From: the human T2T-CHM13v2.0 reference genome, Homo sapiens
Direction: 5' to 3' (one strand)
DNA length: 64,000 nucleotides
NCBI RefSeq assembly: GCF_009914755.1
Contig: NC_060925.1
Shown here: piece by piece, positions 1 through 6,660 of the stretch
Layout: each line of letters opens with the position of its first letter
How positions within the stretch are numbered: position 1 is the first letter of the stretch
Notes under the pieces: model-generated
What the model saw: only the letters and a program-made list of their open reading frames with translations
Databases searched by the model: none
Told to the model about the DNA's origin: nothing
Position numbers and translations under genes: made by a program

Positions 1-509
1 AGGAACGTGACCATTGAAGCACCACAGGGAGGGGTTCAGGCCTCCGGATGACTGCAGGCAGGCCTGGGTAACATCCAGCCTCCCACAAGAAGCTGGTGGA
101 GCAGAGCGTTCCCTGACTCCTCCAAGGAAAGGAGACTCCCTTTCCCGGTCTGCTCAGTAACGGGTGCCTTCCCAGACACTGGCGTTACCGCTTGACCAAG
201 GGGCCCTCAAGCGGCCCTTATGCGGGCATGACAGAAGGCTCCCCTCTTGCCTTCTATTCACTTCTCACAATGTCCCTTCAGCACCTGACCCTATACCTGC
301 CGGTTATTCCTAGGTTATATTATTAATGCAACAGAGTAATATTAAAAGCTAATGATTAATAATGTTTATAATAATGATGGATAATTGTTCATGATCATCG
401 CTGTATCTAATTTGTATTATGACTATTCTTATTCTATTTTCTTTATTATACTGAAACAGTTTGTGCCTTCAGTCTCTTGCCTCGGCACCTAGGTACTCTT
501 CCGCCCACA
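1..509 (-). mobile_element. LTR13A-like ERVK LTR, 5' part (runs off the window start), inside an intron of the SHP-like pseudogene
   Basis: The reverse complement begins TGTGGGCGGAAGAGTACCTAGGTGCCGAGGCAAGAGACTGAAGGCACAAACTGTTTCAGTATAATAAAG, matching the LTR13/LTR13A 5' end as I recall it. AT-rich U3 segment at 310-450. Confidence 0.8.
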
Positions 510-586
510 CGGGACGGGCTGGGGGTGGCCATCTCGGGCTCTGGGAAGGGGCCGGGGCTGTGAGCTGAAGGCTCCATCACCTCCAG

Positions 587-683
587 ATGCTGCAGCAGCA
601 GGAATGCCGGTTCCTGTACCCTCGGAAGGAGGGGCAGAGTGTGGAGAACAAGCCCAAGAATCACTACAAGAACATCCTTCCCT
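587..683 (+). pseudogene. SHP-like pseudo-exon equivalent to PTPN11 exon 7 ([32 protein letters not shown])
   Basis: ctccag acceptor and gtgag donor at 684; 97 bp. Compare SHP2 [33 protein letters not shown]. Confidence 0.92.
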
Positions 684-884
684 GTGAGGGCGGAGGCCAG
701 GGCGTCACCCGTCGGGCCTGGGGGAGGTGGGGGGCAGGCCGAGCATCTGCCACCGCTGACCTGAGGCTCCCCCTTGCATACCCTGGACCCTCCATCTCTG
801 CTCACCACAGGGTCTGCGGGCAAAGAGGCAGGGTGAGGCCCACGAGCTGTGCCCTGGAGAACTGAGCGGCACCTCCCTTCCCAG

Positions 885-951
885 TTGATGCTACCCTTGA
901 GTCATCCTGCTCAACGAGGATGACAGCGGGCCCGGAGCCGACTACATCAGG
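885..951 (+). pseudogene. Pseudo-exon equivalent to PTPN11 exon 8 (FDAT-VILLNEDDSGPGADYIR), frameshifted and lacking NANYI
   Basis: cccttcccag acceptor and gtgggt donor; 67 bp, consistent with 80 - 15 (deletion) + 2 (insertion). Confidence 0.82.
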
Positions 952-1234
952 GTGGGTGTGTGCGGGAGGCGGGGCCTGGGCCCATTGCTCCTGGGGGGCT
1001 CAGGAAGAACCAGGGTCCCCAAGGGAGGGGTGGGCGGCAGTCTCCAAGGGGTCCTCAGAGAGGCTGGATGGGCATTGGTCCTCAGCCCCTTGCTGGCCTG
1101 GAGTGAGGAGTGTGTTTAAGCCACCAGGGCTCTTTGCATAATATTTGTGTGTCGTTTGCATATCATTTGCATAGCATTTGCATGGACTTGTTTGTCCTCT
1201 GTTAACAGCAGCAGTTGGCCTCATTCCCTTTCAG

Positions 1235-1664
1235 ACTGACCCTGAGGAGGAGCCGGGCCATGGCAGGGGCAGGGTGGACATCCCTTGTGGCCCTGCCCCG
1301 CCGCACCTGCACCTGCACAGCCCGCGTGGGCCCGCCCCGCCGCAGCTGAAGTGCACCACCATGGGCCCGGCCCGCGGCTCGCGGCTCGCGGCTCTGGGCC
1401 CGGTTCACCTCGTCCCGGAAGCCGAGGACGCCGGCGGGATCGGTCCGGACGCCGTAGTCCGGCCAGCCGAAGTACTGGAAGTGCTGCACCGTACGCTGTG
1501 GCTCCTCCCCGCGGGGCAGGGCCTCGCGGGCGCAGGGTGTACATCGCCTGCAGGGCTGTCTGCAGGGCTGTCTGCAGGCCACGGTGGCTGCTTTCTGGGC
1601 CACGGTGCACCAGGAGAACACGCGTGTCATCGTCATGACCACCAGGGAGATGGAGCGGGGCCGG
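1235..1664 (+). pseudogene. Pseudo-exon equivalent to PTPN11 exon 9 (…VYIA-QGCL(QGCL)QATVAAFWATVHQENTRVIVMTTREMERGR), interrupted by an inverted insertion
   Basis: ttccctttcag acceptor and gtaggg donor at 1665; 12-bp tandem duplication of the QGCL codons, a 1-nt frameshift, and an insertion at about 1283-1545. Confidence 0.88.
1287..1508 (-). repeat. Inverted duplicate of 2591-2805 (WPD/catalytic pseudo-exon plus two repeat units)
   Basis: The reverse complement reads ggaggagccacagcgtacggtgcagcacttccagtacttcggctggccggactacggcgtcc…catggtggtgcacttcagctgcggcgggg, nearly identical to the sequence from 2591 onward. Confidence 0.95.
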
Positions 1665-1886
1665 GTAGGGGTGCGGTGCCAGTGCTCTCAGTGCCCATCC
1701 CACCCCGTGCATCTTCGGCTGCCCAAGGCCCTTCCCGACCAGGCCAAGGAGGCTGTGGGACGCCGTGGGAGTGGGGAGGCTCCCACAGAGCCCCGTGGCT
1801 GCACGTACACACCTGCGTCTCTGCAGGTCGCAGGGGCGGGGTGCCGAGGTGCTGCCAGCAAGGCTGATGCAAAGCGCTCCCCTCGG

Positions 1887-2018
1887 AACAAGTGTTTCCG
1901 GGACTGGCCAGAGCTGCCCGGCAGCCAAGAGTTCGGCCGTGTGCACATGCGCGTCCTCGGCAAGGGCCAGGCCCAGGGCTACTGCGTGCGGGAGCTGCAG
2001 GTGTGGCGGCCGGGCCAG
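1887..2018 (+). pseudogene. Pseudo-exon equivalent to PTPN11 exon 10 (NKCFRDWPELPGSQEFGRVHMRVLGKGQAQGYCVRELQVWRPGQ)
   Basis: 132 bp, as recalled for PTPN11 exon 10; gtgag donor intact; acceptor reads cgg instead of cag (1884-1886). Confidence 0.88.
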
Positions 2019-2591
2019 GTGAGCCTGGCGGCTGTGGAGCGTGCCTGCTGTCGGCCTGCACTGGGAGACCCCACACCTGCCTGCATCCAACCCCACTGCC
2101 TTTGGGGGCTTCCACACCCCTCAACCCAGGAGGTGCATTCCAAGCCTGGACAGGGGTCACTGACGTGGCCACATTCTCAGCCCTGGGCTGGCGGCCGCTC
2201 CTCCCACACACCTCTCCAACTGCAGCTTTGGTCTCCGTTGTATACCAGAGACGCCCATTTCTGTTCCGGGCAGATTACCTCGTGTTCCCTCCAGCCCCCG
2301 CCCAGTGTGTGTGGGGGGGTCCTCCAGGACCCCATGGACCCCTCACATTTGGTTTTTCCTTATAAAATAACTGTCCTCACAGCCTGCTTCGCCCGCCCCC
2401 AGCTCCCTCTTCCCTTCCCCAGGCACCTGAGCCACCTGGGGCCATCTCGGCGCCCCCTCCCCATTTCCTTCCTCCTCCTCCTGCTCGCCTTGGCTCCCGC
2501 AGCCCCTCCGCTTGGGCACTCCCGGAAACCCAGCTGTGCCTCAGCCTCCTCCTCCCACCCTGGGGTCACACTCACCGCTTGCCCCGCTCAG

Positions 2592-2746
2592 GAGGAGCCA
2601 CAGCGTACGGTGCAGCACTTCCAGTACTTCGGCTGGCCGGACTACGGCGTCCGGGCCGATCCCGCCGGCGTCCTCGGCTTCCGGGACGAGGTGAACCGGG
2701 CCCAGAGCAGCAAGCCGCGGGCCGGGCCCATGGTGGTGCACTTCAG
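2592..2746 (+). pseudogene. Pseudo-exon equivalent to PTPN11 exon 11 (WPD loop to catalytic His: …WPDYGVRADPAGVLGFRDEV…GPMVVHFS)
   Basis: 155 bp; ctcag acceptor; catalytic Cys codon reads TTC (Phe) at 2742-2744; donor reads ct instead of gt at 2747-2748. Confidence 0.92.
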
Positions 2747-2929
2747 CTGCGGCGGGGCGGGCCCACGCGGGCTGTGCAGATGCAGGTGCGGCGGGGCGGG
2801 GCCACGCGGGCTGTGAAGGTGCAGGTGCGGCGGGGCGGGGCCACGCGGGCTGTGCAGATGCAGGTGCGGCGGGGCGGGGCCACGCGGGCTGTGAAGGTGC
2901 AGGTGCGGCGGGGCAGAGCCACGCGGGAC
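2736..2929 (+). repeat. 38/39-bp minisatellite, 5 copies (gtgcagatgcaggtgcggcggggcggggccacgcgggct)
   Basis: Direct inspection of tandem units. Confidence 0.9.
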
Positions 2930-3013
2930 GACGAGGGCGGAGCCATCGGGTGGGCGGGGGCGCCCCCGCCCCCGCCCCCCACTCTCGTCAAAGGCCGCCT
3001 AGTTTGTCCTCAG

Positions 3014-3081
3014 TGGGGGCATCGGATGCACGGGCACCATCATCGTGATTGACATCCTGGTGGACGTCATCCGCAGGCAGG
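3014..3081 (+). pseudogene. Pseudo-exon equivalent to PTPN11 exon 12 ([24 protein letters not shown])
   Basis: 68 bp; tcctcag acceptor; gc donor; P-loop Arg replaced by Cys. Compare SHP2 [24 protein letters not shown]. Confidence 0.9.
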
Positions 3082-3126
3082 GCGAGCCGCTCCACTCTGG
3101 GTCCCCCCCGCCCTGCCCTGCTATAG

Positions 3127-3205
3127 CCCCACCCCTCCGGACGACCCCACCCCTCCGGACGACCCCACCCCTCAGGACGACCCCACCCCTCAGGACGACC
3201 CCACC
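3127..3205 (+). repeat. 18-bp tandem repeat (ccccacccctccggacga), about 4 copies, intronic
   Basis: Direct inspection. Confidence 0.85.
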
Positions 3206-3302
3206 GCTACCGGCAAGCCCCGCCCCTCATCAGCAGCCCCGCCCCTGCCTGCCGGCACCTTCCCCCCATCCGTAGCCCCTCCCCAAGCGCGCTTGTCCGC
3301 AG

Positions 3303-3451
3303 GGCTGGACTGCGACACCGACGTCCCGAAGACGATCCAGCTGGTTTGGCGGCAGCACTGGGGAATGGTGCAGACGGAGGCTCCGTACAAGTTCACGTAC
3401 CTGGCGCTGCAGCGGCACATCCGGGGCGAGTAACTGCGCCTGCGCGAGCAG
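3303..3451 (+). pseudogene. Pseudo-exon equivalent to PTPN11 exon 13 ([48 protein letters not shown])
   Basis: tccgcag acceptor and gtgggg donor; Q-loop motif; in-frame TAA at 3431-3433. Confidence 0.9.
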
Positions 3452-3522
3452 GTGGGGGCGTGGCCCTGCGGGGCGTGGCCTGTGCGGGCGTCGCCATGGT
3501 GACCGGCGGCCCCTCCCCCCAG

Positions 3523-3613
3523 CGCGAGCCGCCTCAGGAGCGCGAGAACCAAAACGTGGGCGCCGCCCCCCGCTAATCGGGTTGCAGCCCCCGGCTCCCC
3601 GGGCATCCCCGGT
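3523..3613 (+). pseudogene. Probable C-terminal tail pseudo-exon (REPPQERENQNV…), cf. SHP2 HEYTNI / SHP1 SEYGNI with the Tyr lost
   Basis: ccccccag acceptor and gtgagt donor at 3614; E-[N]-Q-N-V aligns with E-Y-x-N-I. Confidence 0.55.
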
Positions 3614-5073
3614 GTGAGTGGAGCGCCGGGGCCGGTCCGGAGTCCTCTGGGAGGGACTGGGACGTGCGGGATGCAGGGCTGAGCCGCTGCTCCACGCGCA
3701 GAACCCCGCAGCCCTGGGACGGCGAGGACGCGAACCTGCGGAGCCGCGGGTGTCTGAGGAGCCGCAGGGAACCCCCGGCCTAGCCGCGCCCGCGTGTGGC
3801 CGGAGCTGCGGGCCGGGACTGTGTCCAGGACAGAGCCACAAGCTTGTCCCCAGCTCAGGGAGGTCCAGGGGCGGCAGAGGGAGCGACAGGCTGCGAAGCC
3901 CACCGGTGACCACGTGTGAACCCGCGTGCGCCCCCAGCTCGGCCACTCCGTGCGGGTCTGCCCTCACCGCAGCTCCGGCCTGCCGGCCCTGCCTGCTCCC
4001 GTGGTCTGGGATGTGGCCCCGGTGAGGACCCGGCCCCATCAGGCACAGGGTGGATGTCTGTGGAGTGAGGTGTGTGTGACATATTCATGTGACCACCCGT
4101 GCAGCGTCACGCGCCTGGCCCTGCCGATGACAAGGGTGTGGGCCTGCGTGGGCATGACTGTGTGTGTGACACAGAGTGATGTTGCTGTGACCCGTGGCTG
4201 CACTCCCCACATCACCGGCTTTCACAGCCTTCCGGTAAAGTGCTGTGTTCTCCCTTCTGTGTCTTCGCTGGGACCTGGGGCAAGGGTGGGTGTGGCCCCC
4301 ACAGCTGGAGTCAGCTTCTGTGGGGCCTTCCCGAGCCCTCCCCACCCTGGACCAGAGGCCCAGCTGGTTGGAGCAGGAAGTACCTGGGCTCTGGGGTCAG
4401 GGATGGGAAGGCTGAGGAGGCCTGCGTGAGCTGGACCTGGCCTGGGCCCTCCTGGCCGTGCCTGCCTGGTGGTGCAGGATTCCTGGGGCTGATGACAGAC
4501 GGGGTAGGGCTGGGGTTGGCGAGCCTCCTGCCGATACCTCACGTAGCTGACCTCTGACTCTTCCCCAGCCAGGCTGGCCCTGGGAGTTGCCGGAGAGTCA
4601 GTGGATCTGCAGGCTGCACGCTGGCTGTTACCTTTGCTTCTGGGTTCCCACAGGGGTCATGGTTCTGTGGTTCTCCAGTCAGGGACCCTAGCAGGGCCAT
4701 GGGGCGTGACTTCCTGGAGGTGTGGCCTAGTATGGCCACGGCAGAGGATGGGGGAAGAGAAAGGCCCCCTTTGTCAGCCCCCGGGCTCTGAACCAAGCTG
4801 AAGCCCTCCCCCTGGTCCAGCCTGCCCTGCCCCAAGTGTCCTGGGCCTCTCCCCATCTCCCTGGGGAGCCTCACATTGCTGAGTCGCCAGCCAACTCCAG
4901 AAACCCCCAGCCTGTCTGCAGCCAGAGGGGCTGGGAATTGGACCCCCTAGAACCTTGGGCCCACCTGTCCCAGTGGCTGCTGGGAGTCTAATTCTGTCAG
5001 GGTATCCTCTGGGTTGAGGCTGCAGCAGGGGCACCCAGGGTGAGGCCCTCTTGCCAAAGATGGATACAAATAA

Positions 5074-5079
5074 TTTATT
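5074..5079 (-). terminator. RNF223: AATAAA polyadenylation signal of RNF223
   Basis: tttatt on + in a local AT-rich patch about 830 bp downstream of the RNF223 stop codon. Confidence 0.75.
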
Positions 5080-5191
5080 TTAAAAGGTACAATTCACAAG
5101 GTTGGAGGGGTAGCTGGAAGTTTCTGTGGTTACCTTGCACTGGGGGGCTGCCCTGCCTCCACTCTCTCCCCACAGTCCGAGGGCAAGATGA

Positions 5192-5657
<466 letters not shown>

Positions 5658-5910
5658 TGAGACTGTGGTTCTTGGAGGCTTTGGGGATCCTCTTGTCCAC
5701 CCCATCAGGACCCAGCCTGGAGAATGAGGGGTGGACAAGCTAAATGGAGCCTGGTCTTGGTGGGGCCCCGGTGGAGTCCTCAGAGATGCCAGGCTCCTTT
5801 CGCGTCCTCGGGGACCGACTTCCAGTGGCTGCTGTGCCCTTGGGCCCCCCAGTGGGGGACGCCCCATGGAGCTGGGCGAGGGCGGCTGACCTGGGCAGAG
5901 GCTGCTGGCC

Positions 5911-6660
5911 CTAATTGTCAGTCAGAGGCCCGAGGGGGGAGGCGGCTGTGCTGGTGGCCGGGGGCCGGGGGGGCAGGGGCAGGCAGCGCAGGTTCCCGGT
6001 CTTGAGCGCGCACTGCACCGGCCAGAGTGCCACACAGAAGAGCATCAGCAGCAGGGCAGAGACCAGTGCCATGCGCCTCCAGTCCCTGCAGCGCGCCCAG
6101 CAGCGGGCCAGGCGGCCCCGGCGGGGGGCAGGGTCCCGGGCGGGCACGGGCGGCTCGGCAGGCTTGCTCAAACCCACGTCCACGCATACGAAACCGGGCT
6201 CGCGGCCAGGTGTGGTGGGCAGTGGCTGGCAGCACAGCTTGGTGCCCTCCAGCCACACAGGCTCCTCACGCCGCAAATGCGCCGGCATCCGGGCCTGCAG
6301 CTGGCGGCTGGTGCACAGCGCGGGGGCTCCGGCGGGCGGCACGGCCGTGGGCTGCCTGCAGAAGGGGCAAGGTACAGCCTCACCACCGGGGCGGCCCACA
6401 GGCTGAGCAGCCGCCAGCCGGGCCAGGCACTCCAGGCAGAAGACGTGGGTGCAGGAGAGCTCCTTGGGTGTCTTGAAGATGTTGTCATAGCCTGAGAAAC
6501 AGATGGAGCACTCCAGGGGGGAGGCCACCCTCTCCGAGCCAGGGGTGCCAGGGGACCTGGGGCTGCCGGCCGAGCTGGGGGACCTGGGCATCGAGGCTAT
6601 GGAGCTGCTCCGGCGAGGGGGTGGCACAGCCGTGTGCCACACCTGCTGGCCTGACGACAT
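5911..6660 (-). CDS. RNF223: RING finger protein 223, 249 aa; C3HC4 RING plus C-terminal transmembrane helix (RNF183/186/152-type membrane E3 ligase)
   Basis: MSSGQQVWHT…CSICFSGYDNIFKTPKELSCTHVFCLECL…CPFC…MALVSALLLMLFCVALWPV…; cccacag acceptor at 6670-6671 puts the ATG 9 nt into the exon. Confidence 0.95.
   Translation of the reverse strand: MSSGQQVWHTAVPPPRRSSSIASMPRSPSSAGSPRSPGTPGSERVASPLECSICFSGYDNIFKTPKELSCTHVFCLECLARLAAAQPVGRPGGEAVPCPFCRQPTAVPPAGAPALCTSRQLQARMPAHLRREEPVWLEGTKLCCQPLPTTPGREPGFVCVDVGLSKPAEPPVPARDPAPRRGRLARCWARCRDWRRMALVSALLLMLFCVALWPVQCALKTGNLRCLPLPPRPPATSTAASPLGPLTDN

What the first reader, a model, noticed from the sequence alone, without database searches (positions are those of the whole stretch)
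587..3613. A lost third SHP-family phosphatase gene (PTPN6/PTPN11 paralogue) preserved with its intron-exon architecture
Seen in sequence: eight ordered exon remnants with splice signals encode the classical PTP motifs in SHP flavour. Four have lengths 97, 132, 155 and 68 bp, equal to those I recall for PTPN11 exons 7, 10, 11 and 12, including the intron splitting HCS|AG. It is therefore not a retrocopy. It resembles both SHP2 (LQQQEC, VPKTIQ) and SHP1 (VIL…DYI, NKC..WPE, GLDCD) but is diverged from each. Inference: this is an ancient paralogue (unitary pseudogene) of the SH2-domain phosphatases that died in the lineage leading to this genome and may be intact in other vertebrates. I recall an exon-containing 'SHP3' pseudogene at 1p36.33 in PTP genome surveys, so the locus may not be wholly new, though the timing and biology of its loss look under-explored.
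Basis: partly seen in the sequence, partly recalled or inferred. Interest (0 to 1): 0.85.

Follow-up and report, generated by a model that had tools for sequence, protein, structure and literature searches.

The report
Dead third SHP phosphatase gene (PTPN11BP)
This stretch of human chromosome 1 is the decayed remnant of a third SH2-domain tyrosine phosphatase gene (SHP3/PTPN11B) that many other vertebrates still have intact; the remnant is real but has already been described and named.

Summary
Window 587-3675 (+) holds eight ordered exon remnants of a classical PTP domain. The 3 kb upstream of the window hold exons 2-6, encoding both SH2 domains. Intron positions and exon lengths match PTPN6 and PTPN11 measured in the same genome, so it is not a retrocopy. 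In a maximum-likelihood tree the read-through groups with mammalian 'PTPN11-like' proteins (100/100) inside a shark-to-mammal clade annotated ptpn11b (99/98). That clade is sister to SHP1. AU tests reject placement with PTPN11 or PTPN6. The human copy is dead: frameshifts, stops, lost splice sites, catalytic Cys to Phe, P-loop Arg to Cys, and an inverted copy of exon 11 splitting exon 9. Liongue et al. 2012 described a mammalian SHP3 pseudogene flanked by HES4 and AGRIN, and HGNC lists a unitary pseudogene PTPN11BP. Added here are a full exon and lesion map, and evidence that the loss is not mammal-wide. Full-length models with intact catalytic motifs exist in carnivores, ungulates, whales, bats, pangolin, colugos, treeshrew, a marsupial and platypus. 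None was listed for primates, rodents, lagomorphs, afrotherians or xenarthrans.

The parts
1..510 (.). 3' part of a roughly 960-nt interspersed repeat inserted in intron 6. The element spans window -440..510. It carries the last exon (-157..468) of the sense lncRNA LOC100288175.
   Evidence: 40 scored copies elsewhere in the genome at 90-94% identity; 7 of 7 fetched copies align, 6 of them from -440/-447 to 500-513, at 89-92%. The lncRNA exon coordinates come from the hub's gene table.
587..683 (+). Exon 7 remnant, 97 nt. The frame is open and AG and GT are intact. It encodes the start of the PTP domain, up to the KNILP motif.
   Evidence: 28 of 32 residues identical to colugo. The length is the same as PTPN11 and PTPN6 exon 7.
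885..951 (+). Exon 8 remnant, 67 nt instead of 80. It has a 2-nt insertion (frameshift) and a 15-nt deletion. AG and GT are intact.
   Evidence: expected length.
1235..1287 (+). Exon 9, 5' part. The acceptor AG is intact. It ends in the left copy of the flanking duplication (1255-1287).
1278..1518 (-). Inverted copy of 2580-2814 (the end of intron 10, all of exon 11, and the start of the intron 11 minisatellite), inserted into exon 9.
   Evidence: arms 134 nt at 97% and 115 nt at 92%. (224 of 234 ungapped columns identical, 95.7%). Pfam Y_phosphatase on the minus-strand translation, E 3.8e-5.
1519..1664 (+). Exon 9, 3' part. It contains the right copy of the flanking duplication (1519-1550), a 1-nt deletion, and a 12-nt tandem duplication (1548-1578). 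The donor GT is intact.
   Evidence: (12-nt period, 2.6 copies, 100% match).
1887..2018 (+). Exon 10 remnant, 132 nt. The frame is open, the acceptor is gg instead of ag, and the donor GT is intact.
   Evidence: E 1.5e-17; 32 of 44 identical. Same length as in PTPN11 and PTPN6.
2592..2746 (+). Exon 11 remnant, 155 nt. It encodes the WPD loop (WPDYG, His to Tyr) and the first half of the signature motif, with the catalytic Cys replaced by Phe. The donor is ct instead of gt.
   Evidence: 39 of 51 identical. Same length as in PTPN11 and PTPN6.
2744..2927 (.). 39-nt minisatellite (4.7 copies) in intron 11. Part of it was copied into the inverted duplicate.
3014..3081 (+). Exon 12 remnant, 68 nt. 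It encodes the second half of the signature motif, reading GGIGCTG (Ala to Gly, and the invariant Arg to Cys). The donor is gc.
   Evidence: Same length as in PTPN11 and PTPN6.
3127..3205 (.). 18-nt tandem repeat (4.4 copies) in intron 12.
3303..3451 (+). Exon 13 remnant, 149 nt, the same number of codons as in the colugo and horse proteins. It has an in-frame TAA at 3431-3433 and a Q-loop Gln to Pro change. AG and GT are intact.
   Evidence: 39 of 49 identical, 1 stop.
3523..3675 (+). Last coding exon remnant (C-terminal tail). The two tail tyrosine motifs are lost (ENQNVG where Tupaia has EYLNVG; GVlWEGL where it has GVYENL). There is a TAA at 3574-3576 and at least one frameshift.
   Evidence: contiguous HSP 3427-3651, E 4e-8; DP score 51 against a shuffle maximum of 18.

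Best explanation
The locus is the human unitary pseudogene of SHP3 (PTPN11B). This is the third vertebrate member of the SH2-SH2-PTP phosphatase family and the sister gene of SHP1/PTPN6, dating from the early vertebrate genome duplications.

The whole gene is still laid out on the + strand between AGRN and RNF223. Exons 2-6, encoding the N-SH2 and C-SH2 domains, lie at window -2877 to -522. Exons 7-14, encoding the PTP domain and tail, lie at 587 to about 3675.

Shown here: the gene cannot encode a phosphatase. It carries frameshifts in exons 5, 6, 8 and 9, stops in exons 13 and 14, at least four non-canonical splice sites, and the loss of half of exon 3. The catalytic Cys is replaced by Phe and the P-loop Arg by Cys. 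A 241-nt inverted copy of exon 11 sits in the middle of exon 9.

Inferred from predicted protein models of other primates: the decay was stepwise. Cys to Phe was already present in the catarrhine ancestor. Arg to Cys arose in the ape stem. The inverted duplication and the 12-nt duplication came after the gibbon split.

Inferred from the zebrafish literature: the ancestral protein was an SH2-autoinhibited tyrosine phosphatase acting redundantly with SHP2 upstream of ERK. That redundancy explains why its loss was tolerated.

From the annotation: what remains is transcribed as non-coding RNA on both strands. The sense lncRNA starts in the CpG island where exon 1 should lie and ends in a repeat inserted into intron 6.
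For: Anatomy
- tblastn of intact horse and colugo proteins finds colinear remnants of every coding exon from 2 to 14.
- Exon lengths and phases match PTPN6 and PTPN11 measured in the same genome.
- Exon 4 (196 nt) and exon 13 (149 nt) match the SHP3-specific codon counts of colugo and horse.

Phylogeny
- Careful IQ-TREE, 38 rows by 594 columns. The human read-through sits inside the placental 'PTPN11-like' clade (100/100).
- That clade lies inside a shark-to-mammal clade (99/98), sister to SHP1 (99/97), with SHP2 outside (94/89).
- The AU test rejects grouping with PTPN11 (delta lnL 165, p 3e-6) and with PTPN6 (delta lnL 111, p 4e-107).
- The human end branch is 0.57, against 0.07-0.18 for intact placental orthologues.

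Lesions.

No second copy: the genome-wide search finds only this locus, PTPN6, PTPN11 and five contiguous PTPN11 retrocopies as SHP-like.

Intact orthologues
- 79 of 85 placental models keep the exact P-loop motif and 84 of 85 the WPD motif.
- Among non-placental ptpn11b proteins the counts are 118 of 120 and 119 of 120.

Primate models
- Macaque keeps SAGIGRTG but has Phe at the Cys position.
- Gibbon has IGCTG but reads exon 9 without interruption.
- Bonobo matches human.

Literature
- Liongue 2012: SHP3 clade and a mammalian SHP3 pseudogene beside HES4 and AGRIN.
- HGNC: PTPN11BP as a unitary pseudogene.
- Bonetti 2014 abstract: Shp2b is active, ptpn11b-/- fish are viable and fertile, and the gene is redundant with ptpn11a for Erk signalling.
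Against: - The HGNC passage gives no coordinates, and the hub's RefSeq table has no pseudogene row here. That PTPN11BP is this locus is therefore an inference, resting on this being the only exon-containing SHP-like pseudogene found.
- The identification of Liongue's zebrafish shp3 with ptpn11b is by elimination: zebrafish has three SHP genes. It is supported by the NCBI names in the clade, but no zebrafish sequence was placed in my tree.
- The order of lesions rests on three predicted primate proteins, not on DNA. Gene models can splice around lesions. Gibbon also reads LPDHG where human and macaque read WPDYG, which a simple stepwise history does not explain.
- Within the placental clade the human branch does not sit next to colugo or Tupaia as the species tree would predict. 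That part of the tree is unresolved and the human branch is long.
- Exon 1 was not found with a strict pattern. The loose match is not above chance: 19 found against 16 expected.
- SHP1 and SHP2 are represented by only two sequences each in the tree, so the SHP1-SHP3 sister relation is less well sampled than the SHP3 clade.
Confidence: 0.95

Rival explanations
1. The locus is an unprocessed (duplicated) pseudogene, made by a recent segmental copy of PTPN11 or PTPN6 that then decayed.
For: The exon-intron architecture is shared with both genes. Automatic annotation names its orthologues 'PTPN11-like'.
Against: AU tests reject a clade with PTPN11 (p 3e-6) and with PTPN6 (p 4e-107). The sequence groups at 100/100 with a clade that reaches back to sharks. 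Identity to PTPN6 and PTPN11 exon 11 is only 51-52%, against 75% to colugo.
Confidence: 0.01
2. The locus is a processed (retrotransposed) pseudogene of PTPN11, like the five others in the genome.
For: Five such copies exist, on C3, C4, C5, C6 and C8.
Against: At least twelve introns are retained at the family's positions, most with AG/GT. The processed copies match as contiguous blocks of 300-530 codons, whereas this locus matches exon by exon.
Confidence: 0.005
3. The locus still makes a protein, for example a catalytically dead pseudophosphatase or an SH2-only adaptor from the open exons 2 and 4.
For: Exon 2 (123 nt), exon 4 (196 nt), exon 7, exon 10 and exon 11 have open frames. The sense strand is transcribed (hub table: LOC100288175). 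Gene predictors emit ORF 'proteins' from the locus in bonobo, gibbon and macaque.
Against: The exon 2 donor is ct. The 5' half of exon 3, the core of N-SH2, is unrecognisable. Exons 5 and 6 are frameshifted with stops. RefSeq curates both transcripts as non-coding (hub table). The protein branch is 3-8 times longer than those of intact orthologues, as expected for neutral drift.
Confidence: 0.03
4. The remnant has been taken over as a regulatory or lncRNA locus, so the DNA is functional although the gene is dead. This is compatible with the best explanation rather than an alternative to it.
For: The hub table lists two curated lncRNAs, sense and antisense. It also lists RefSeq enhancer (3306-3420, 3392-4157) and silencer (2729-2996, 3158-3227, 3348-3747) features over exons 11-14. 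The antisense exon 2576-2849 has canonical minus-strand splice sites. The sense lncRNA starts in a 76% GC island.
Against: Transcription and reporter-assay hits are common in GC-rich DNA near genes and do not show function. I tested nothing about conservation or phenotype.
Confidence: 0.15

Closest known systems
SHP3 / ptpn11b (zebrafish Shp2b; 'PTPN11-like' in NCBI annotations of other vertebrates)
   Same: The human remnant is the orthologue. It falls in the same clade, and it has the same exon architecture, including the 196-nt exon 4 and 149-nt exon 13. It lies beside AGRN and HES4, as reported for zebrafish shp3.
   Different: The human copy is disabled at many points. The orthologues keep the SH2 pockets, WPD loop, P-loop, Q-loop and tail tyrosine motifs.
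PTPN6 (SHP-1), chromosome 12p13
   Same: It is the sister paralogue (99/97). Exons 2, 3, 5, 6, 7, 8, 10, 11 and 12 have identical lengths in PTPN6 and, where intact, in the remnant. Exon 11 has its best PDB match to SHP-1.
   Different: Only about 52% identical in exon 11. A clade with PTPN6 is rejected. PTPN6 is intact and open.
PTPN11 (SHP-2), chromosome 12q24, and its five processed pseudogenes
   Same: The domain order and intron positions are the same. The SH2 exons of the horse orthologue are closer to PTPN11 (70-79%) than to PTPN6 (61-63%). In zebrafish the two genes are functionally redundant.
   Different: PTPN11 lies outside the SHP1+SHP3 pair in the tree, and a clade with it is rejected. 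The processed pseudogenes lack introns.
Other human unitary pseudogenes (the HGNC gene group that includes RNF4BP and PTPN11BP)
   Same: It is a single-copy ancestral gene with functional orthologues elsewhere, disabled in place with its introns retained.
   Different: Nothing categorical. The inverted intragenic duplication that splits exon 9 is an unusual extra lesion.

Membership tests
SHP subfamily of classical non-receptor PTPs (SH2-SH2-PTP) | Two N-terminal SH2 domains followed by one PTP domain, in that order, in one gene | tested here: met
   Colinear remnants were found: N-SH2 at -2877..-2391, C-SH2 at -1770..-1367 and the PTP domain at 587-3451. Pfam Y_phosphatase matches exon 11. 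The orthologues carry PF00017 plus PF00102.
SHP subfamily of classical non-receptor PTPs (SH2-SH2-PTP) | Active-site signature HCX5R with catalytic Cys and Arg | tested here: not met
   Human reads HF S|GGIGCTG, with Cys to Phe and Arg to Cys. The motif is recognisable but dead. Orthologues keep [10 protein letters not shown] in 79 of 85 placental models and 118 of 120 non-placental proteins.
SHP subfamily of classical non-receptor PTPs (SH2-SH2-PTP) | Intron positions and phases shared with PTPN6 and PTPN11, including the intron inside the HCS|AG codon | tested here: met
   Exons 2, 7, 10, 11 and 12 are 123, 97, 132, 155 and 68 nt in all three genes.
SHP subfamily of classical non-receptor PTPs (SH2-SH2-PTP) | C-terminal tail tyrosine motifs (YxNV/I and YENL types) | tested here: not met
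   The human tail reads ENQNVG and GVlWEGL where Tupaia has EYLNVG and GVYENL. A Y.N[VIL] motif occurs somewhere in 84 of 85 placental models; that scan was not limited to the tail.
SHP3 / PTPN11B orthologue group | Falls inside the SHP3 clade, not with SHP1 or SHP2 | tested here: met
   Support is 100/100 with placental members and 99/98 for the whole clade. AU tests reject the alternatives.
SHP3 / PTPN11B orthologue group | Conserved position beside AGRN and HES4 | tested here: inconclusive
   The human position between AGRN and RNF223 comes from the hub table. Zebrafish synteny comes from Liongue 2012. The positions of the horse, dog and colugo genes could not be checked, because no vertebrate genome other than the window's own is held.
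Unitary pseudogene | Disabling lesions in a gene that has no functional copy in the same genome but has functional orthologues elsewhere | tested here: met
   Lesions. No other SHP3-like locus appeared in the genome-wide search, which used a stricter first look, so weak matches may be missed. Orthologues with intact motifs. Functional in zebrafish.
Processed pseudogene | No introns; a contiguous copy of the mRNA | tested here: not met
   Introns are retained. Compare the contiguous PTPN11 copies on C3, C4, C5, C6 and C8.

The most novel reading that the evidence does not exclude
SHP3/PTPN11B is not 'lost in mammals', as stated in print. It survives as an apparently functional third SHP phosphatase in monotremes, marsupials and a large part of the placentals (carnivores, horses, ruminants, pigs, camels, whales, bats, pangolins, colugos). 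It underwent a burst of change on the placental stem (branch 0.30). It was then lost independently in primates and in other placental lineages for which no model turned up (rodents, lagomorphs, afrotherians, xenarthrans). Human and mouse, the two species in which SHP signalling has been worked out, would then both lack an enzyme that dogs, pigs, cattle and horses still have.
Probability: 0.55. Interest if true: 0.45.

Novelty: already known. Interest (0 to 1): 0.25.

Why it matters
The main point, a dead third SHP gene beside AGRN, is already in the literature and in nomenclature, so it changes nothing for specialists. The report adds three things:

- **A base-level map.** RefSeq's T2T annotation shows only two lncRNAs here. 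The map could let them be read as the transcribed remains of PTPN11B.
- **A correction to the published loss.** The loss appears to be lineage-specific rather than mammal-wide. This matters for anyone carrying SHP1/SHP2 biology, or the pharmacology of SHP2 inhibitors, over from human and mouse to dog, pig, cattle or horse, where a third and closely related enzyme may be present.
- **A dated example of stepwise gene decay.** It includes an intragenic inverted duplication with a flanking duplication, which looks like a replication template switch.

Tried and rejected
- **Pfam on single exons.** 5 of 8 exon translations gave no Pfam match and one only a chance-level GIT_SHD hit (E 0.35), because they are too short; exon 11 and its inverted copy passed the Y_phosphatase cut-off and exon 13 fell below it (14.9 bits against 20.9). 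The first attempt failed on a 16-residue piece.
- **Exon 1.** A strict degenerate pattern gave 0 matches in the 8.6 kb upstream. A loose pattern gave 19 matches against 16 expected, so it is not informative by itself. The candidate at window -6159..-6144 is kept only as a lead.
- **First half of exon 3.** Neither tblastn nor the frameshift-aware alignment found a convincing match.
- **Cluster representatives.** The 50%-identity representatives are anonymous and gave only one sequence each for SHP1 and SHP2. The SHP1-SHP3 sister relation therefore rests on two sequences per paralogue.
- **Retrocopy alignment.** Aligning the retrocopies to PTPN11 produced mostly Alu noise. Only the exon rows were used.
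- **Literature searches with no useful result.**
  - 'PTP pseudogenes' + SHP + 'human genome': 0 papers.
  - 'PTPN11-like': 0 papers.
  - SHP3 + SHP1 + SHP2: 50 papers, 15 listed; by title and abstract start the rest of those listed are streptococcal peptides, SHP2 inhibitor reviews, a yeast transporter and other unrelated subjects, apart from Liongue 2012.
- **Sources not available.** Andersen 2004 is not held. The supplements of Liongue 2012 (Table S1, File S4) could not be opened; they may state which mammals were examined and the identity of zebrafish shp3.
- **Not attempted.** I ran no structure prediction or complex prediction, because nothing in the verdict depends on them.


Full report
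**1. What is in the sequence**

Reading window 1-4200 and its stop-to-stop frames shows, on the + strand and in order, the classical PTP motifs spread over separate blocks with splice-like borders. I mapped them with intact relatives found later (horse P0018, colugo P0004) and with a frameshift-aware alignment to colugo.

| Exon | Window coordinates | Length | State |
|---|---|---|---|
| 7 | 587-683 | 97 nt | open |
| 8 | 885-951 | 67 nt | frameshifted |
| 9 | 1235-1287 and 1519-1664 | split | interrupted |
| 10 | 1887-2018 | 132 nt | open |
| 11 | 2592-2746 | 155 nt | open, catalytic Cys lost |
| 12 | 3014-3081 | 68 nt | P-loop Arg lost |
| 13 | 3303-3451 | 149 nt | in-frame stop |
| 14 | 3523 to about 3675 | - | stop and frameshift |

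The matches are far above chance:
- tblastn E-values are 6e-23 for exon 11, 1.5e-17 for exon 10 and 5e-19 for exon 13.
- Pfam Y_phosphatase scores 7e-8 on exon 11 alone.
- Against solved structures, SHP-1 scores 1.4e-14 and SHP-2 7e-10.
- The tail exon scores 51 in the alignment, against at most 18 for 30 shuffles.

**2. The exon-length claim, tested rather than recalled**

The window's genome is held. I located PTPN6 and PTPN11 in it. I fixed the PTPN11 exon borders by aligning an intronless PTPN11 retrocopy to the gene. All 14 exons then had AG/GT and joined into one open frame. I fixed the PTPN6 borders by a brute-force search for AG...GT intervals, which gave a single open solution.

| Gene | Exons | Lengths (nt) |
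|---|---|---|
| PTPN11 | 2-13 | 123, 195, 193, 117, 114, 97, 80, 159, 132, 155, 68, 152 |
| PTPN6 | 2-13 | 123, 195, 190, 117, 114, 97, 80, 150, 132, 155, 68, 152 |

The chr1 remnant has 97, 132, 155 and 68 nt for exons 7, 10, 11 and 12.

By contrast, the five PTPN11 processed pseudogenes (C3, C4, C5, C6, C8) match as contiguous blocks. The locus is therefore not a retrocopy.

**3. Upstream: the SH2 domains**

I fetched the 18 kb before the window. Colinear remnants of exons 2-6 lie at window -2877 to -522.

| Exon | Length | State |
|---|---|---|
| 2 | 123 nt | open; donor is ct |
| 3 | - | only the 3' half is recognisable; donor GT is intact |
| 4 | 196 nt | open; AG and GT intact; same codon count as colugo |
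| 5 | 107 nt instead of 117 | two frameshifts |
| 6 | 112 nt | frameshift running into TAG |

Other features:
- Intron 5 holds a 30-nt minisatellite.
- Intron 6 holds a roughly 960-nt interspersed repeat at window -440..510.
- Between the AGRN 3' end and exon 2 there were only low-complexity chance hits.
- A 76% GC island lies at -6800..-6000.
- Inside that island is a weak candidate for exon 1, at -6159..-6144, ending in AG|gtgagc. It lies about 35 nt downstream of the annotated start of the sense lncRNA. The pattern match is not above chance.

**4. Lesions**

From:
- Frameshifts in exons 5 (two), 6, 8 (+2 nt, plus a 15-nt deletion) and 9 (-1 nt).
- In-frame TAA in exon 13 and TAA in exon 14.
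- Non-canonical splice sites at the exon 2 donor, exon 10 acceptor, exon 11 donor and exon 12 donor.
- Catalytic Cys to Phe, and WPD-loop His to Tyr, both in exon 11.
- P-loop Ala to Gly and Arg to Cys, in exon 12.
- Q-loop Gln to Pro, in exon 13.
- Both tail tyrosine motifs lost, in exon 14.
- A 12-nt tandem duplication in exon 9.
- An insertion in exon 9. Window 1278-1518 is the reverse complement of 2580-2814 (the end of intron 10, exon 11, and the start of the intron 11 minisatellite). 224 of 234 ungapped columns are identical. The insert is flanked by a roughly 33-nt direct duplication of exon 9 sequence (1255-1287 and 1519-1550). I read this layout as a replication template switch, which is an inference.

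**5. What it is**

A search of the large protein database with the 452-residue open frame spanning exons 9-11 returned 85 hits:
- Four were ORF or ab initio models read from the primate remnant itself: three named (bonobo, gibbon, macaque) and one unnamed (metaclust).
- Two further low-scoring hits were unnamed or generic.
- The remaining 79 were mostly full-length 'PTPN11-like' SH2-PTP proteins of non-primate mammals, at 45-79% identity.

A profile-free search of 50%-identity representatives, followed by a search seeded with the bird representative P0086, showed the same gene across jawed vertebrates. It is usually annotated ptpn11b. It occurs in sharks and rays, bichir, gar, sturgeon, teleosts, coelacanth, lungfish, frogs and salamanders, squamates, turtles, birds, platypus and a marsupial.

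In the careful maximum-likelihood tree (38 rows, 594 columns):
- The human read-through, with X at every break, lies inside the placental clade (100/100).
- The whole shark-to-mammal clade has support 99/98.
- SHP1 is its sister (99/97), and SHP2 lies outside (94/89).
- AU tests reject forcing the remnant together with PTPN11 (delta lnL 165, p 3e-6) or with PTPN6 (delta lnL 111, p 4e-107).
- The human end branch is 0.57, against 0.07-0.18 for intact placental genes.

This is the pattern of a unitary pseudogene drifting neutrally.

**6. It is already known**

- Liongue et al. 2012 (PLoS One 7:e32777; section 7 and discussion passages read) defined SHP3 as a third clade in zebrafish, chicken and toad. 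They reported 'a SHP3 pseudogene' in mammalian genomes flanked by HES4 and AGRIN. They proposed that 1R gave a SHP1/SHP3 precursor and SHP2, and that 2R separated SHP1 from SHP3. My tree agrees with that order.
- The HGNC 2026 database paper (passage read) gives PTPN11BP, HGNC:58112, as a recently named unitary pseudogene. The passage has no coordinates, and the symbol occurs in no other held paper.
- Zebrafish has exactly three SHP genes: ptpn6, ptpn11a and ptpn11b (van Eekelen 2010, table read). By elimination, Liongue's shp3 is ptpn11b.
- Bonetti 2014 (abstract) shows that Shp2b is catalytically active, that ptpn11b-/- fish are viable and fertile, and that either gene rescues the double mutant and its low phospho-Erk. 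That is a plausible reason why the loss was tolerated (inference).

**7. What seems not to be in print**

Liongue et al. inferred loss 'along the mammalian lineage'. The best 120 of 1903 relatives of the colugo protein contain these placental groups:
- Carnivores
- Perissodactyls
- Cetartiodactyls
- Bats
- A pangolin
- Two colugos
- Tupaia (flagged low quality)

After those come a marsupial and non-mammals, down to 73% identity. Platypus was found. No full-length model from primates, rodents, lagomorphs, afrotherians, xenarthrans or eulipotyphlans is listed.

The retained genes look functional:
- 79 of 85 placental models keep the exact P-loop and 84 of 85 the WPD motif. The six P-loop exceptions are short or alternative models.
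- The placental stem is long (0.30) while branches within placentals are short.

Absence from a protein database is weak evidence for loss. It needs genome alignments, which I could not run. The phrase 'PTPN11-like' occurs in no held paper.

**8. Order of decay in primates (inferred from predicted proteins)**

- Macaque still reads SAGIGRTG in exon 12 but already has Phe at the catalytic Cys position.
- Gibbon shares IGCTG with human but reads exon 9 straight through. It shows no inverted insert, no 12-nt duplication and no 1-nt deletion.
- Bonobo matches human.
- The two arms of the inverted duplication differ by 3-4.3%. From recalled genome-wide figures, that is about the human-orangutan to human-gibbon divergence, which fits an origin in the great-ape stem.
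- Unexplained: gibbon reads LPDHG where human and macaque read WPDYG.

**9. The locus today**

The hub table lists a sense lncRNA, LOC100288175, spanning -6194..468. Its last exon (-157..468) lies inside the intron 6 repeat. It also lists an antisense lncRNA, LOC105378948. Its exons cover the remnants of exons 10-12 whole and those of exons 7 and 13 in part. Its exon 2576-2849 has canonical minus-strand splice sites. RefSeq enhancer and silencer features overlie exons 11-14.

I read the sense RNA as the residual transcript of the dead gene, cut short by the repeat. That is an inference. Any present function of these RNAs is untested.

**10. Verdict**

Interest is low for the main claim. It is modest for the refinement that SHP3 is retained in many mammals.

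Noticed in passing
window 1278-1518 (-) with flanks 1255-1287 and 1519-1550: This is an intragenic inverted duplication. A 241-nt copy of exon 11 and its flanks is inserted in reverse into exon 9, 1.1 kb upstream, and is bracketed by a roughly 33-nt direct duplication. The layout looks like a replication template switch. A gibbon protein model reads exon 9 without it.
   Followed up: yes
window -440..510 (L010 7560-8510): A roughly 960-nt interspersed repeat sits in intron 6, with at least 40 copies at 90-94% identity elsewhere in the genome. It supplies the terminal exon and 3' end of the sense lncRNA LOC100288175. The repeat family was not identified.
   Followed up: partly
L010 1201-2000 (window -6800..-6000), candidate at L010 1841-1856: A 76% GC island with GC-box-like repeats lies at the annotated start of LOC100288175. 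It contains a weak match to the expected first coding exon, with GTG in place of ATG and ending AG|gtgagc. It may be the ancestral PTPN11B promoter, still active.
   Followed up: partly
L010 6850-7330 (window -1150..-670); window 2744-2927; window 3127-3205: Three GC-rich tandem arrays lie in introns 5, 11 and 12, with units of 30 nt, 39 nt and 18 nt. The 39-nt array begins exactly at the mutated exon 11 donor.
   Followed up: partly
proteins P0004-P0082 against P0248 and P0348: The stem branch leading to placental SHP3 is 0.30 substitutions per site. The marsupial branch is 0.066 and branches among other tetrapods are 0.02-0.09. This points to a burst of change before the placental radiation, followed by conservation.
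   Followed up: partly
protein P0002 (gibbon model) against window 2630-2650: Gibbon reads LPDHG in the WPD loop, where human, the human inverted copy and macaque all read WPDYG. This does not fit a simple shared-lesion history. It may reflect gene conversion, parallel change or a model artefact.
   Followed up: no
G000 C3:109.82 Mb, C4:85.91 Mb, C5:23.41 Mb, C6:138.89 Mb, C8:58.85 Mb: There are five intronless PTPN11 processed pseudogenes. The C3 copy carries an Alu-like insertion inside the exon 7 region.
   Followed up: partly
literature (PMC2933243, PMC3988099): The zebrafish papers treat ptpn11b as a teleost duplicate of ptpn11. The clade found here includes sharks, gar, coelacanth, amphibians, birds and mammals. 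It is therefore an old vertebrate paralogue, as Liongue 2012 argued.
   Followed up: yes
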